Origin: Sphagnum compactum
Lineage: Eukaryota
DNA length: 64,000 nucleotides
Direction of reading: 5' to 3'
Assembly (NCBI GenBank): GCA_965153455.1
Contig: OZ234493.1
Coordinates: forward strand, 10,282,213-10,346,212
Below the pieces are notes generated by a model. That model was not told the origin of the DNA and made no database searches. It was given only the letters and a program-made list of their open reading frames with translations. Below, one piece after another: positions 3,442-16,828 of the stretch. The translations under genes and the position numbers were made by a program. Within the stretch, counting starts at the first letter, position 1, and each line of letters starts with the position of its first letter.

Positions 3442-3869
3442 ATAATGTCAAGTAGTGGTACCTAGTTAATTCAACACCTGCTCAAAATTGTTCAGATATT
3501 TTTATTTCAACAGCCCAAAGAAACGCAATTGGGCTGCCCTAAATTTTGTGATGAATGCTTTTCTTCAGAATTTGAATTACCCTATATTACCTTGGCAGCT
3601 TCAACACTAAATATTTTATATTAGAAATGTTGAAAATTTTAACTTTTTAAAAAAAAAATTGTGAAGGAAAATATTGAATCTTTAAGAATATTCTATGTGT
3701 CAAAATGAAAAAAAATAAAAATAAATTAATTATTTGACAAACATGTGTCTAAGCTGTCAATATACTACAGTACCTACCTCAAGTCCCAAATTTATAGGAA
3801 TAAGGGCCCATGTGAGGCAAAGTCGAGTGCACACCCATTTCTGGTAAAGCCCATGGTTGAGGGCTTTAC

Positions 3870-12369: not shown

Positions 12370-12498
12370 GTGCGACACTCATCATCGCTTGAGAGTAGTC
12401 GATGTCACTTGTGTGGACGATAGAAGCGACTAGCAAGCAGCCGCCGTAGTGATACCAGTCCATAACGGCGTCATTGGGCAAGCAGAAACGTGGTAGGC

Positions 12499-14148
12499 AT
12501 GCCAGGACCTCAGTCCTTTAGTTCTAGAAACTTGACTCTCTCGCACAAGTACAGCACACAACTGCCGAAGATCAGCAAAAAGATTGTCAAACGAGAGCTG
12601 TTGACAGACTCGGAGGAGGACGAGGAGTTGAATGACTCCACGAGGCCTAAGAAATTAGTTCGAGTGATTTGCACGGATCCTGATGCCACCGACTCCTCTA
12701 GCGATGAAGAAGAAGGTAACCGTTTGATCCGCCGTTGTTATAACCATTCCACTGGACTCTTCCAGTTCCGTGCAGAAAGCGCTCATTTTTCCTTTTCTGA
12801 TAGCGAAGACGAGGCAGAACTCCCGAGCTACTATTCTGTCTTCACCGCAACTGCAATGAAATGTGGGCTCAATTGTGCAAGCTCTGATCTTGCAACCACA
12901 AGGTCCGAGATCAAAGAGCCGAGTACCCATGAGTCTCTCAAGAGTCTTTGCCAAACCAAAAGATCACCCGAGCTGAGAAAGCAGCTGGTAGCCAAGAAAC
13001 CCAGCAAGAAAGATAGGTCAGAGAAAAGCAGCATTGTCGCCACCCGTTTGTCTGCATCGCTGATCACCAGCAACACTGGCTCTCATGTAGAAGCTGCTCA
13101 GCTGCTGAAGACAGGAGAAGGGCGACTAGGATCAAAGCCCCCTAAGTACAGGGGCGTGAGACAAAGGCCATGGGGAAAGTGGGCAGCCGAGATCCGGGAT
13201 CCTTTCAAAGGGCTGCGCCTGTGGCTCGGAACCTACGACACAGCAGAGGAAGCAGCTCGAGCTTATGACAAAGCAGCGAGGGAAATCAGAGGTCCGCAAG
13301 CGCAGACAAATTTCGAAAACTGGGTGCAGGTGCAGTCTGATATGCCCTCAGCAGCTGCAGGTGCAGATCTTTTGCACGAAGAAGCCGCAGAGATCAAGCT
13401 AGTGAAGAACCTGCTAGAAAACAGATCAGGAATGCCAGAAGGTCATCAGCAACAACCAGTTGAAGTTCCTTCTGACATGACTGCCATCCATGATCAGCTG
13501 GAAGATCAGCCCAGCCATACACCAGCGACAAGATCATCGGCTGGCTCGACTGAGATTCCTTCTAGTTTCTGTGGACTTAATAATGTAGAATCAAGGGGCA
13601 ATGCAGCAGACTCTGTTGGGGGAGAAGTTGGAGTAGAGGCTGAGAAATGCTCTGAGATTTATGATCAGAGTGGTTTGTTTGTGTGCTTGTCATCCGGTTC
13701 TGAGAATTCAATGTGTGATCAATTCTTGAGAGCTGGAGAATCTGAGGACTCCTTTGAAGGATGCCTTTCAGAAACTGCAGTCTGTGATCTGCCTCAAGAA
13801 AGGATAGAAGAATCATGTGCTACAACAGAGGGACTGCAGGTCAGTGATCACTGCACTAGTGATCCTGAACCACATCTAATTGATCAGGTTATAGCAGAAA
13901 ACAGCATCCCACGGGAAGAACATAACTTGAGTATAGATATTCTCTCACAGGACTACTTTGAAGATGCAGACTTCATCTTTGATATGTCAAGTTGTCTACA
14001 AGGAGAACCATTGATGGATTTCTCTGCAATCAGCTTTGATCCTCTTGATGATGAGGCAGGAGGTGACATTGCAGATTTGGTCTTTGATGACAACAGGACC
14101 AACAATTGGTTTGCAGCTGCTGCCAGTGATATCCCAGCTGTTGCTTGA
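12499..14148 (+). CDS. AP2/ERF transcription factor, cytokinin response factor (CRF)-type, ~549 aa, single coding exon
   Basis: Uninterrupted ORF; the first ATG is at 12499 (the ORF track starts at GTG 12490). CRF motif [23 protein letters not shown]2 domain [52 protein letters not shown], and an acidic C-terminus. Confidence 0.95.
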
Positions 14149-14984
14149 AGATTGAAACAAGAGAATCTCCTCATGCTGCAAGCACTAACGACACTTTTAT
14201 TTTCTTTTGAGTCCATCATATTGCAAGGTTTGTGACTCATGTGGATTGATTCACAAAGCTTCAATTTGAGCTTCTCGATGATGCAATCCGGCAAATTGAT
14301 TTTATTTGCTCACAAAATTTTGTAGCTGCTGTGCCATTGAAGCACAACGATTAGGGTCTAAGACTCCTTGATCTTAGAGAGAAGACAATATGACGACCTG
14401 ATGGTTTTTGCTAGATTTAAGTGTTGCAGTCTATGGGTGTCTTTGCTCCCACAAACAAATGCTTTTGTTTTGAGCCATTTGCTACAATCATAAAGTCTGG
14501 TGTTTACTAAGCACCTTGGAGATCTTTTGTTTACCTGTGACAAAGTTTTGTAAGAGGCTAGTAATGGGTATGGTGATTTAGTTCTTCATTAGTGTGCATA
14601 GTGTTAGTGTGCACTCTTGGAAGATTGGGTGAGTATTTAACTGATATGTATTGGGAAAAACCAAATTCAGCAAGTAAATTGCTTGCCAAGCTAGTTTCTT
14701 TTCTACCATTCTCTTTGGAAAGTTGAGGATTAAATTGTAGTCGTTGTATTTTGTAGCTTGTCATTTCTCATTTTTCAAATTGTCAGTCAAATGTATGGCT
14801 TTTATTGGGAGTTTGCAGTGAACAATTTATTGTCTTGATTGCAAACCTGACATTCTATGTTGCTTTGCAGCAGCTGCCATGTGACCTATGTTGACTAAGT
14901 TGGTTCACAATTTTTTTGGTTGTCGCCAGTAGGCTCTGTTGTTACATTTGTGCCTGTGGGCTGGAACCTTTTCAAGCTTGTTGG

Positions 14985-15760
14985 AAACCTCTTTTGGTAG
15001 TGGCATATACCCAAAAACCTCTTGCGAGTTGAATTGTACATCTAAAGGCTTCTCTTGTAATTTCTTGGATCTAACTGTGAGCCAGAGTCCTGAAGGTTTG
15101 TCCTGTGACATTTTTGACAAACGCTCTCAACCAGAGTATGCAGGTATTGAAATGATTAGAATGCCTCATGTTCATTCCAATATCTCAATGACTGCGAAGC
15201 TGGGGGTTATCAATAGTCAATTTTACAGATTCTTGAGACTTTGTAGTTGTAAGAAGTTTTTTATCTTCCAGATGGTCAGTCTTATTGTCTTTCTGAAGGC
15301 AAAAGGTTACCCCTTTAAAGTTCTTCTAAAGAGAACTAGAGGGTTGGTTCTTAAAGAAAAATTCCTGTTTGGAATTTTCGCTTTTGGCATTTTCAGAATG
15401 ATTTTGCTTCGGGTCATGTAAGTGGGGAGCTTCCTGTAAGCCCACTTGTTCTTAGTCTTTCCCTGTTCTTTTCCCTTTCTGTCTTTCTTTGTCTGGTCTT
15501 TGTTGTGGGGTCTGTTGCTAGCCAGTAGTATGGCTGAGTCTTCCCATTGCTTTCGGAATTGCAGCAGGAACTCAGTTTGCAGGATGGTGCTTGTCACCGG
15601 CCTTTACCCACTGTAGGGAGCTGATGAAGTCAGTGGGGAAGTTGTGATAGGTGAGTCACTATCGTACATACTACTGTTGATGGTCCCTGAACAGGTGTGA
15701 GACTGGCACTTTTGTTCATACCGGTGTGTGTTTTTCGTCTCCCCTTGTTTGGTTCTTTCT
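14985..15760 (+). mobile_element. 5'-truncated Penelope-like retroelement (Naiad/Chlamys-type RT C-terminus plus structured 3' tail)
   Basis: ORF to stop at 15421: GIYP (15002)..FLDL (15062)..DKR (15116)..MPHVHSNI..GVINSQFYRFLRLCS..LKAKGYP, which corresponds to the RT motif 6/7 region and thumb of PLEs. The catalytic DD is absent (truncated) and no GIY-YIG follows the thumb. Boundaries are approximate. Confidence 0.8.
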
Positions 15761-16099
15761 GTGGCTTCCTGAGGAAGTGTTAGCCTTGCTGTTTCTTCTT
15801 CATTGTGAGAATGGAGATTTCTCTATTCTTATGAAAGATATTGTTGGAAACCTACAAGTATCGCCATGACTACTGGTCAGGTACCCAAAGCAGCAGGAGA
15901 CTCCTTGAGTGTTTCCTGTATTCAAGCAATGAATGGTGGTGGTTTGACCAGTTTGTTGTAGGTAATCATTGTTGCAGAGAAATGGAATCCCATTAAATGC
16001 TGGAGCATGCATTTGTGGAAAAGCTGCCTGTATTTGTGATGATGAGGCGTCAAAAGACACTTACTTACAGCAAGCAAGATTCTGGTGGGTTATGAAGAG

Positions 16100-16485: not shown

Positions 16486-16828
16486 AGAGCAACTCCACTG
16501 GTGCTCAGTATGTGACCTTGGAAATTAAAATTGGGTGAAGAAAAGTCAAAACATGCCGATCTGGGTCAGCTAAAATGGTTTTGACCCAGCATTTTTGCAC
16601 ACCATGCACAGGCTGGTAAAATGCGCATCAAAGGTTAACACTTGCTGTTTATTGGCTAGATAGTTTGATTGGTCCAGGTGGGTTTGCTATTTAGTAGTTT
16701 CTCATCTATTTGCAGTACCAGTTTTAGTTTTATGGGTGGGGTTGGAAAGAGGTAATATCTAGACTTGGATCATGGATGTGGGAAATATTTTTGCAGGGTC
16801 ACATACTGAGCAGCACTGGAGATGCTCT
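16486..16828. mobile_element. Tourist-like (PIF/Harbinger) MITE
   Basis: 35-bp TIRs: agagcaactccactggtgctcagtatgtgaccttg versus reverse complement agagcatctccagtgctgctcagtatgtgaccctg. TSD unclear. Confidence 0.8.

What the first reader, a model, noticed from the sequence alone, without database searches (positions are those of the whole stretch)
14985..15421. Naiad/Chlamys-type Penelope-like reverse transcriptase in an apparent moss genome
Seen: about 140 uninterrupted codons reading GIYP..EL..FLDL..IFDKR..MPHVHSNI..GVINSQFYRFLRLCS..LKAKGYP, with a stop about 29 aa after GYP. Known: canonical Penelope/Poseidon elements continue into a C-terminal GIY-YIG endonuclease. The Naiad/Chlamys clade instead has permuted domains (N-terminal GIY-YIG, RT last) and a DKR-type motif, and among land plants it has been described mainly from spike mosses. 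Inference: this is a 5'-truncated copy of a Chlamys-like family. The absence of stops or frameshifts, unlike all other TE relics here, suggests fairly recent activity in a bryophyte lineage where PLEs are poorly described.
Basis: partly seen in the sequence, partly recalled or inferred. Interest (0 to 1): 0.75.

Follow-up and report, generated by a model that had tools for sequence, protein, structure and literature searches.

The report
Front-nuclease Penelope retroelement in peat moss
This is a dead, front-truncated copy of a Penelope-like jumping gene in a moss, whose longer relatives carry their DNA-cutting domain at the front of the protein, an arrangement described from algae, slime moulds and animals but not found described for land plants.

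Summary
Confirmed. Window 14991-15840 is an 850-bp, 5'-truncated retroelement copy between 13-bp target-site duplications. A related organism carries the exact empty site. The copy encodes only the end of the RT palm and the thumb, then 420 nt of 3' UTR. Longer copies in the genome (at least 229 exact 3' ends) read N-terminal GIY-YIG without CCHH, CxC, DK, long IFD, FVDD, stop, with pLTR tandems and no hammerhead. That is the minimal Chlamys layout. The only land-plant members in Craig et al. 2021 lack the endonuclease. A Ceratopteris protein (54%) is its sister; an Amoebidium protein (34-35%) has the same layout. This copy is middle-aged (1.9% from the family majority), and its open frame says little about age; younger subfamilies differ by 0.2-0.5%. 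No intact copy was found. Family traits: 107 of 154 insertions have a clean TSD (median 15 bp) at T-rich sites rather than microsatellites; 83% lie in the T-rich (gene-sense) orientation; 3 of 106 5' junctions carry telomere repeats; there is no AUG before the nuclease. The scan already noted this family twice elsewhere in this genome. Verdict: new member of a known kind.

The parts
14978..14990 (+). Left target-site duplication (13 bp, identical to the right one); its last 2 nt also match the element (5' microhomology)
   Evidence: run X11 record 1 joins 14977 to 15841, i.e. one TSD copy and no element
14991..15421 (+). 3' remnant of the single ORF: end of RT palm (GIYP, FLDL, FDKR) and thumb, then stop; residues about 684-825 of the open frame in L021; no catalytic DD, no endonuclease
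15422..15840 (+). 3' UTR (pLTR-forming region), pyrimidine-rich, ending at the family's fixed 3' end; no poly(A) tail, no hammerhead found
15805..15832 (+). Predicted RNA hairpin just before the fixed 3' end; inferred RT recognition signal
   Evidence: the last 99 nt fold with z -4.07, 0 of 200 shuffles as stable; stem kept in 11 copies mostly through G-U changes, covariation term only -0.24
15841..15853 (+). Right target-site duplication; its first two T overlap the element's 3' end
12466..14148 (+). Neighbouring host gene (stop-to-stop frame, 560 aa): AP2/ERF transcription factor; CRF-like label recalled from memory; the element lies about 830 bp past its stop on the same strand
   Evidence: PF00847, E 2.5e-16

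Best explanation
The window holds a dead-on-arrival, 5'-truncated insertion of an endonuclease-bearing Chlamys-type Penelope-like retrotransposon family of a peat moss. SHOWN: the unit is about 4.4 kb (80-nt junction plus 4,335-nt body) with one frame of about 1,030 codons: GIY-YIG without Zn-finger motifs, linker, CxC, GxKF, DK, RT with long IFD, thumb. 3' ends are fixed, 5' ends vary, insertions carry 10-18-bp TSDs, some copies have pLTRs, and source lineages evolved under purifying selection. INFERRED: the GIY-YIG domain nicks the bottom strand at a T-rich site; the A-ending primer pairs with one or two U at the RNA boundary just past a 3' hairpin; the RT copies the RNA (target-primed reverse transcription) and here stopped after about 850 nt; a second nick about 13 nt away gives the TSD; the 5' end was joined through 2 nt of microhomology. 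The insertion postdates the split from a relative about 3% diverged. The lineage has a sister in a fern and most likely descends within plants from streptophyte-alga Chlamys.
For: Domain order and motifs in L022, L031, L043, L044, L021. PF01541 at E 0.001-0.002, below the Pfam cut-off. The EN model (pLDDT 84) best matches I-TevI, weakly (E 0.04, TM 0.79 of the target), with other GIY-YIG nucleases among the next hits. The RT model (pLDDT 85) has telomerase in ranks 1-15, best E 1e-10. Catalytic R, H and E are invariant in 23 aligned EN domains. RT tree: moss, fern and 2 unnamed rows form a clade (SH-like 100) among cysteine-less-EN rows, outside the 27-row Naiad-type clade (99). TSD of at least 9 nt in 107 of 154 evaluable 3' ends, median 15. 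T at 81% and 73% of sites in the first two target positions. pLTR tandems with one shared 80-nt junction in 7 loci. pS 0.101 against pN 0.016 between two subfamily majorities. Empty site in run X11.
Against: No intact EN+RT copy: the longest open frame was 413 aa among 150 scored EN matches and 825 aa among 150 scored RT matches, so the full protein is read across several broken copies. No in-frame AUG lies before the GIY motif, so how the ORF is translated is unexplained. Pfam gives no RT hit, and the EN hits are all weak. The tree holds no named Chlamys and no canonical PLE or TERT outgroup, and is FastTree with a midpoint root. 47 of 154 ends show no TSD by my test. The catalytic steps are untested.
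Confidence: 0.92

Rival explanations
1. Same element, different history: the moss-fern lineage arrived or spread by horizontal transfer (between seed-free plants, or from a protist or alga) rather than by descent from the land-plant ancestor.
For: Moss and Ceratopteris RTs are 54% identical although the hosts split very early in land-plant history (age recalled); only these two named plants appear in three homologue searches and one representatives search; the best named non-plant match is an ichthyosporean, Amoebidium; horizontal transfer is documented for conifer Dryads.
Against: The moss-fern path in the tree is about 0.96 changes per column, and the clade is internally diverse (unnamed relatives 58-76% identical to each other), as expected of an old plant lineage; streptophyte algae carry the same minimal layout; gene models miss most TEs, so patchiness is not shown.
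Confidence: 0.25
2. The sense-orientation bias comes only from the T-rich target motif plus selection against antisense copies (whose transcribed strand would be A-rich), not from any link between insertion and transcription.
For: The target motif alone predicts 55% (window) to 63-65% (host flanks) of sites in the T-rich orientation; the unit has 209 A-rich 6-mers on its antisense strand against 49 on the sense strand.
Against: The observed 88 of 106 exceeds the motif prediction (P about 2e-5), so the motif alone is not enough; AATAAA itself is not enriched on the antisense strand (2 against 3). Selection was not tested.
Confidence: 0.55
3. The family is the endonuclease-less PLE-X group that Craig et al. 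noted in spike mosses and, by BlastP, in mosses.
For: Moss host; CxC motif present; the paper mentions moss hits.
Against: A GIY-YIG domain lies in the element's reading frame in several copies; no hammerhead; dispersed sites, not 28S rDNA; the N-terminus looks unlike PLE-X1 and like Chlamys-1_meVir by eye.
Confidence: 0.02
4. The window piece is a canonical Penelope/Poseidon (Dryad-like) or LINE fragment, or a passively duplicated relic.
For: No family hit for the short peptide; some EN fragments are carried by segmental or other repeats.
Against: The stop follows the thumb in all long copies examined, with no C-terminal EN; the fold is telomerase-like; the copy has its own TSD and an empty allele exists.
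Confidence: 0.02

Closest known systems
Minimal Chlamys elements, e.g. Chlamys-1_meVir (Mesostigma viride) and Chlamys-1_cAtm (Chlorokybus atmophyticus); Craig, Yushenova, Rodriguez, Arkhipova 2021, PMC8557442
   Same: N-terminal GIY-YIG without CCHH and without the CX2-5CxxC linker, CxC, DK with a variable third residue, long IFD, RT last, 5' truncation, pLTRs, no canonical hammerhead, size 4.4 kb (meVir 4,552 bp). The EN and the residues before it resemble meVir closely by eye.
   Different: Land-plant host. Clean 10-18-bp TSDs at T-rich non-repeat sites, where the paper often could not discern TSDs because of (CA)n/(C)n targeting. Strong gene-sense orientation. No AUG before the EN (the paper lists 'no start codon' for several Naiads). 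Occasional telomere-repeat fillers.
PLE-X1_sMoe, PLE-X1_sTam, PLE-X_cBra (spike mosses, Chara; same paper)
   Same: Naiad/Chlamys clade, CxC motif, seed-free plant hosts.
   Different: Those lack the endonuclease, carry hammerheads and a CxCX1-8C extension, and in Selaginella target 28S rDNA; this family has the EN, no hammerhead and dispersed sites.
Naiad (animals; same paper)
   Same: Permuted order, CxC, IFD, pLTR.
   Different: Naiad EN has CCHH and CX2-5CxxC, and DKA; here both Zn motifs are absent, the motif A-to-B spacing is 100 aa against mostly 82-89 in the Naiad-type rows, and the RT falls outside the Naiad-type clade.
Dryad (conifer Penelope/Poseidon; Lin et al. 2016, seen only as cited in PMC8557442 and PMC9033089)
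   Same: An endonuclease-bearing PLE in a land plant.
   Different: C-terminal EN, canonical clade, horizontally acquired from arthropods.

Membership tests
Chlamys | GIY-YIG endonuclease N-terminal to the RT | tested here: met
   GVIY..YVGQT upstream of the linker and RT in L022, L043, L044, L048, L060; PF01541 E about 0.001; fold like I-TevI. Absent from the truncated window copy itself.
Chlamys | EN lacks CCHH and the CX2-5CxxC linker; R, H, E, N conserved | tested here: met
   No cysteine pair in or before the GIY-YIG core; R71, H75 and E139 invariant in 23 rows, and the GYN motif present.
Naiad/Chlamys | CxC motif with HGH and GxKF between EN and RT | tested here: met
   C228-x-C230, HHGHV and G264TKF in L021; the cysteines are invariant in 27 rows.
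Chlamys | DK motif with a variable third residue | tested here: met
   D357-K358-C.
Chlamys | IFD longer than in Naiads | tested here: met
   Motif A to GIPMG is 100 aa, against mostly 82-89 in the CC-type rows.
Chlamys | No C-terminal endonuclease | tested here: met
   Stop 35 aa after GYP in the window and in the long copies.
PLE | RT closest to telomerase, with catalytic DD | tested here: met
   RFVDD in L021 and L024; Foldseek ranks 1-15 are TERTs.
PLE/Chlamys | 5' truncation and partial tandems forming pLTRs | tested here: met
   Median length 858 nt of 154; pLTRs in L045, L046, L048, L050, L054, L055, L058.
Chlamys | No canonical hammerhead ribozyme (most families) | tested here: met
   No Rfam hammerhead in the body or the pLTR junction; none by a core-and-stem scan.
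Chlamys | Preference for (CA)n or (C)n microsatellites (many families, not all) | tested here: not met
   Targets are T-rich non-repeat sites. The paper's table lists several Chlamys, meVir among them, with no such preference, so this is not a defining failure.
Chlamys | RT groups with the published Chlamys sequences | tested here: inconclusive
   The tree places it among unnamed cysteine-less-EN elements and outside Naiad-type ones, but no published Chlamys or canonical PLE sequence was in the tree; compared by eye only.
Chlamys | 5' UTR intron overlapping an internal promoter (Chlamys-3_cRei, Penelope) | not tested
   A very T-rich 5' region, candidate donor sites and the missing AUG fit an intron, but no reads were laid on a full-length copy.
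Naiad | CCHH and CX2-5CxxC in the EN; animal host | tested here: not met
PLE-X (EN-less Chlamys of spike mosses and Chara) | No GIY-YIG; hammerhead present; 28S rDNA target in Selaginella | tested here: not met

The most novel reading that the evidence does not exclude
An old land-plant lineage of endonuclease-bearing Chlamys, inherited from streptophyte algae and kept in peat mosses and ferns, still or very recently mobile. It inserts preferentially into transcribed genes in the sense orientation through a transcription-linked step, is translated without an AUG ahead of its nuclease, and has its 5' junctions sometimes finished by telomere-repeat synthesis (host telomerase, or its telomerase-related RT switching to telomerase RNA) on either strand.
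Probability: 0.2. Interest if true: 0.72.

Novelty: new member of a known kind. Interest (0 to 1): 0.48.

Why it matters
In the literature I could search, land plants had only the horizontally acquired conifer Dryads as endonuclease-bearing Penelope-like elements, and the land-plant Chlamys lacked the nuclease. This family extends nuclease-bearing Chlamys to a moss, very probably to ferns, and shows the layout in an ichthyosporean. It also supplies something the defining paper says was often missing: over a hundred readable target-site duplications outside microsatellites. These give the stagger between the nicks (about 15 bp), the target preference and the junction types, which makes the still-open PLE integration mechanism testable. 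Practically, several hundred insertions sit in or near genes, and pieces leak into gene models (a Sphagnum and a Ceratopteris 'hypothetical protein' are partly or wholly this element). The window copy itself is an inert fragment.

Tried and rejected
Pfam scans gave no RT family for the peptide or for the 825-aa frame. No intact autonomous copy was found among the scored EN and RT matches or the 40 long loci examined. A programmed frameshift between EN and RT was rejected because the breaks differ between copies. Selenocysteine read-through of the three conserved in-frame TGA codons upstream of the EN was considered; the frame above them did not align clearly with 25 relatives' N-termini, and land plants lack the machinery (recalled), so it is more likely UTR or intron. 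Hammerhead searches were negative. The alignment-based homologue search returned only close relatives and no named algal Chlamys; 10 further representatives had no names. The maximum-likelihood tree of 99 rows did not finish; the FastTree run kept 68 of 100 rows, dropping 32 rows that had no EN to label. Published reference proteins were compared by eye only (the rows seen are cut at 400 residues), so placement among named clades stays open. The telomere fillers seen first in a smaller set were not joined by further cases in the larger sample (3 of 106). An apparent length peak at 410-430 nt is probably alignment breakage in the low-complexity UTR and was not interpreted. Whether the insertion lies inside the AP2/ERF transcript could not be told: run X22 barely covers that gene. 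The ESM Atlas gave only unnamed or RVT_1/HTH_animal clusters, a lead and no more.

Full report
Observation. Pfam finds nothing credible in it. In the own genome (382 Mb, 702 contigs) the 141-aa peptide has 819 candidates, and all 150 scored are matches, many 90-98% identical, with open frames from under 100 up to 825 aa. A 13-bp direct repeat lies at 14978-14990 and 15841-15853.

Host. This is an inference: a peat moss. The grounds are about 19 chromosome-sized contigs plus one of 3.3 Mb (karyotype recalled), a Sphagnum-named gene model that carries a 74%-identical piece of the element, and weak holders labelled moss or plant metagenome. The neighbouring gene is an AP2/ERF factor on the same strand, ending about 830 bp upstream.

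The full element. The longest copies run 4,335 nt in L022, preceded in tandem copies by a shared 80-nt junction. Read across L043, L044, L031 and L021, the frame is about 1,030 codons: GVIY..YVGQT with R, H, E and GYN; a linker; CxC..HHGHV; GTKF; DKC; FDFSTLYT; a 100-aa spacing to GIPMG; RFVDD; thumb; stop. The EN segment hits PF01541 only at E 0.001-0.002, below the cut-off. A profile of 27 relatives hits only I-TevI in the PDB, at E 0.004. The EN model (pLDDT 84) best matches I-TevI (E 0.04, TM 0.79 of the target), with Eco29kI, T4 EndoII, Hpy188I and UvrC among the next hits. The RT model (pLDDT 85) matches telomerases in ranks 1-15. Seven loci show a 3' piece, the junction and then the body, i.e. 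pLTRs. No hammerhead was found. Against completeness: no copy with an intact EN+RT frame was found, and there is no in-frame AUG between three conserved TGA codons and the GIY motif in the 10 copies aligned there. Splicing or a non-AUG start is needed; this is unexplained.

Relatives. The first homologue search (residues 180-825 of L021) gave 77 proteins. After near-identical unnamed copies come a Ceratopteris richardii gene model and an unnamed cluster at 54%, then an Amoebidium parasiticum protein at 35% and unnamed metagenomic proteins with the same cysteine-less N-terminal EN. The fern sequences seen are RT-side only (P0090 reaches the linker), so an EN in ferns is not shown. In a FastTree of 68 of 100 RT rows, moss, fern and two unnamed rows form one clade (SH-like 100; moss-fern path about 0.96 changes per column) among cysteine-less-EN rows. 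The 22 rows with Naiad-type cysteines lie in a separate 27-row clade (99), which also holds one row that my pattern labelled cysteine-less. The labels come from my own pattern, the root is the midpoint, and no named reference was in the tree.

Comparison with the literature. Of PMC8557442 I read the abstract, sections 6, 9, 10, 12, 15 and 19, term passages, and supplement parts 1, 2 and 7 plus one supplement search; figures were not seen and protein rows are cut at 400 residues. It defines Chlamys by an N-terminal EN without CCHH or CX2-5CxxC, CxC, DK and a long IFD; all are met here. Its land-plant members are the EN-less PLE-X families of Selaginella, and the moss BlastP hits that it mentions belong to that type. 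By eye the EN region here is closest to Chlamys-1_meVir. A 2022 review lists only Dryads and EN-less PLEs for land plants (PMC9033089, passages). A 2026 preprint adds nothing on plants (10.64898/2026.07.22.740005, passages). Nine searches (listings only) found no description of such elements in mosses, ferns or Amoebidium. The library lacks most subscription journals, and I could not search Repbase or Dfam. Two earlier notes of this scan report the same family at other places in this genome; I reached my reading before seeing them.

Insertion pattern. An exact 21-nt 3'-end pattern has 229 matches and its reversed control 0; a 3' UTR search had 1,049 candidates. In the loci fetched (top protein matches plus the first-listed pattern matches, so not a random sample) I found 157 distinct 3' ends. 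Three had their 5' end outside the locus; of the other 154, 107 have a TSD of at least 9 nt (median 15, mostly 10-18) and 47 do not by my test. There is no poly(A) tail; the first two target bases are T in 81% and 73% of sites, matching the T run that follows the 3' end in tandem copies. Of 106 junctions (one 39-nt TSD dropped), 70 show 0-12 nt of overlap at the 5' join, inflated by alignment extension, and 36 have fillers. Three fillers are telomere repeats, two G-rich and one C-rich on the element strand, against about 0.1 expected (P about 2e-4); a fourth lies between two element pieces in L044. A hairpin precedes the fixed 3' end.

Orientation. Flanks 50-300 nt away are T-over-A on the element's strand in 88 of 106 cases on each side; splice-donor words are 54 sense against 19 antisense; the longest flank ORF of at least 200 aa is sense in 30 and antisense in 5. 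The target motif alone predicts 55-65%. Poly(A) RNA of run X22 covers the element at depth 86-539 on one strand and under 1 on the other. The strand is sense if the first mate reads opposite to the RNA, as cross-mapping reads on the AP2 gene suggest. Most reads are 90-95% alike, so they come from other copies, and many run past the 3' end. These are probably host transcripts, not proof of an active promoter. Targeting and selection are not separated.

Age. Run X11 (organism C; 81 differences in about 2,580 nt of flank, 3%) has one contig that joins 14977 to 15841, the exact empty site. Runs X7 (organism A, 0.8%) and X8 (organism B, 1.2%) have contigs that run 28 and 24 nt into the element, which suggests a filled site but is under the tool's 31-letter bar. 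Among 75 copies the window's is 1.9% from the majority (median 3.1%) and 3.1% from its nearest neighbour; the closest pairs differ by 0.2-0.5%. Four copies of the youngest subfamily differ from their majority by 2-6 of 1,647 nt, and two subfamily majorities differ by pS 0.101 and pN 0.016, i.e. purifying selection on the source elements. So the family was active recently, this copy belongs to an earlier burst, and its open frame is expected by chance (P about 0.79).

Verdict. The observation and the classification hold. It works like a Chlamys, and it passes every defining feature that I could test except placement among the named references, which is inconclusive. It is a new member of a known kind, notable for its hosts and for its readable insertion sites. 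Interest 0.48.

Noticed in passing
window 16486-16828: A 343-bp multi-copy element with 39-bp terminal inverted repeats (87% alike) and high DNA depth; three relatives at 77-78% in fetched loci. The ends resemble Tourist/PIF-Harbinger MITEs (recalled, untested).
   Followed up: partly
L014, L035, L069 (5' junctions) and L044: Telomere repeats of 11-20 nt as junction filler, on either strand; short telomere words are also frequent in ordinary flanks (57 words of at least 10 nt in 536 kb; 8 in the window).
   Followed up: partly
L022 about 3610-3680 and the same place in 9 other copies: Three conserved in-frame TGA codons upstream of the EN and no in-frame AUG before the GIY motif; a branch-point-like word and a CAG lie just downstream.
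   Followed up: partly
L216, L217, L218, L056, L057 (20 or more similar hit pairs): Rearranged pieces of this element, with two different EN fragments, sit inside another repeat of over 8 kb whose copies are 94-98% identical and carry ORFs of 337 and 208 aa that I did not identify.
   Followed up: partly
G000 C20 and the ends of C2, C3, C4, C13, C17, C18, C19: EN-bearing fragments recur on the 3.3-Mb contig C20 and near contig ends, probably by segmental duplication; L022, L023 and L041-L043 are one insertion, in an intron of a duplicated gene.
   Followed up: partly
P0010/P0108 (Amoebidium parasiticum, EukProt): A complete Chlamys-type protein with a cysteine-less N-terminal GIY-YIG from an ichthyosporean transcriptome, a group not in the 2021 table; contamination not excluded; no paper found.
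   Followed up: partly
P0075 and P0008/P0105: A Sphagnum gene model for a TPR protein contains an exonised piece of the RT, and a Ceratopteris 'hypothetical protein' locus is the element itself.
   Followed up: no
L021 2341-3803 and 7030-7931: This copy has inserted into a tandem array with a unit of about 290 bp.
   Followed up: no
L053, L054, L055, L080: Older subfamilies at 73-78% DNA identity with the same junction and 3' hairpin, so the lineage has a long history in this genome.
   Followed up: partly
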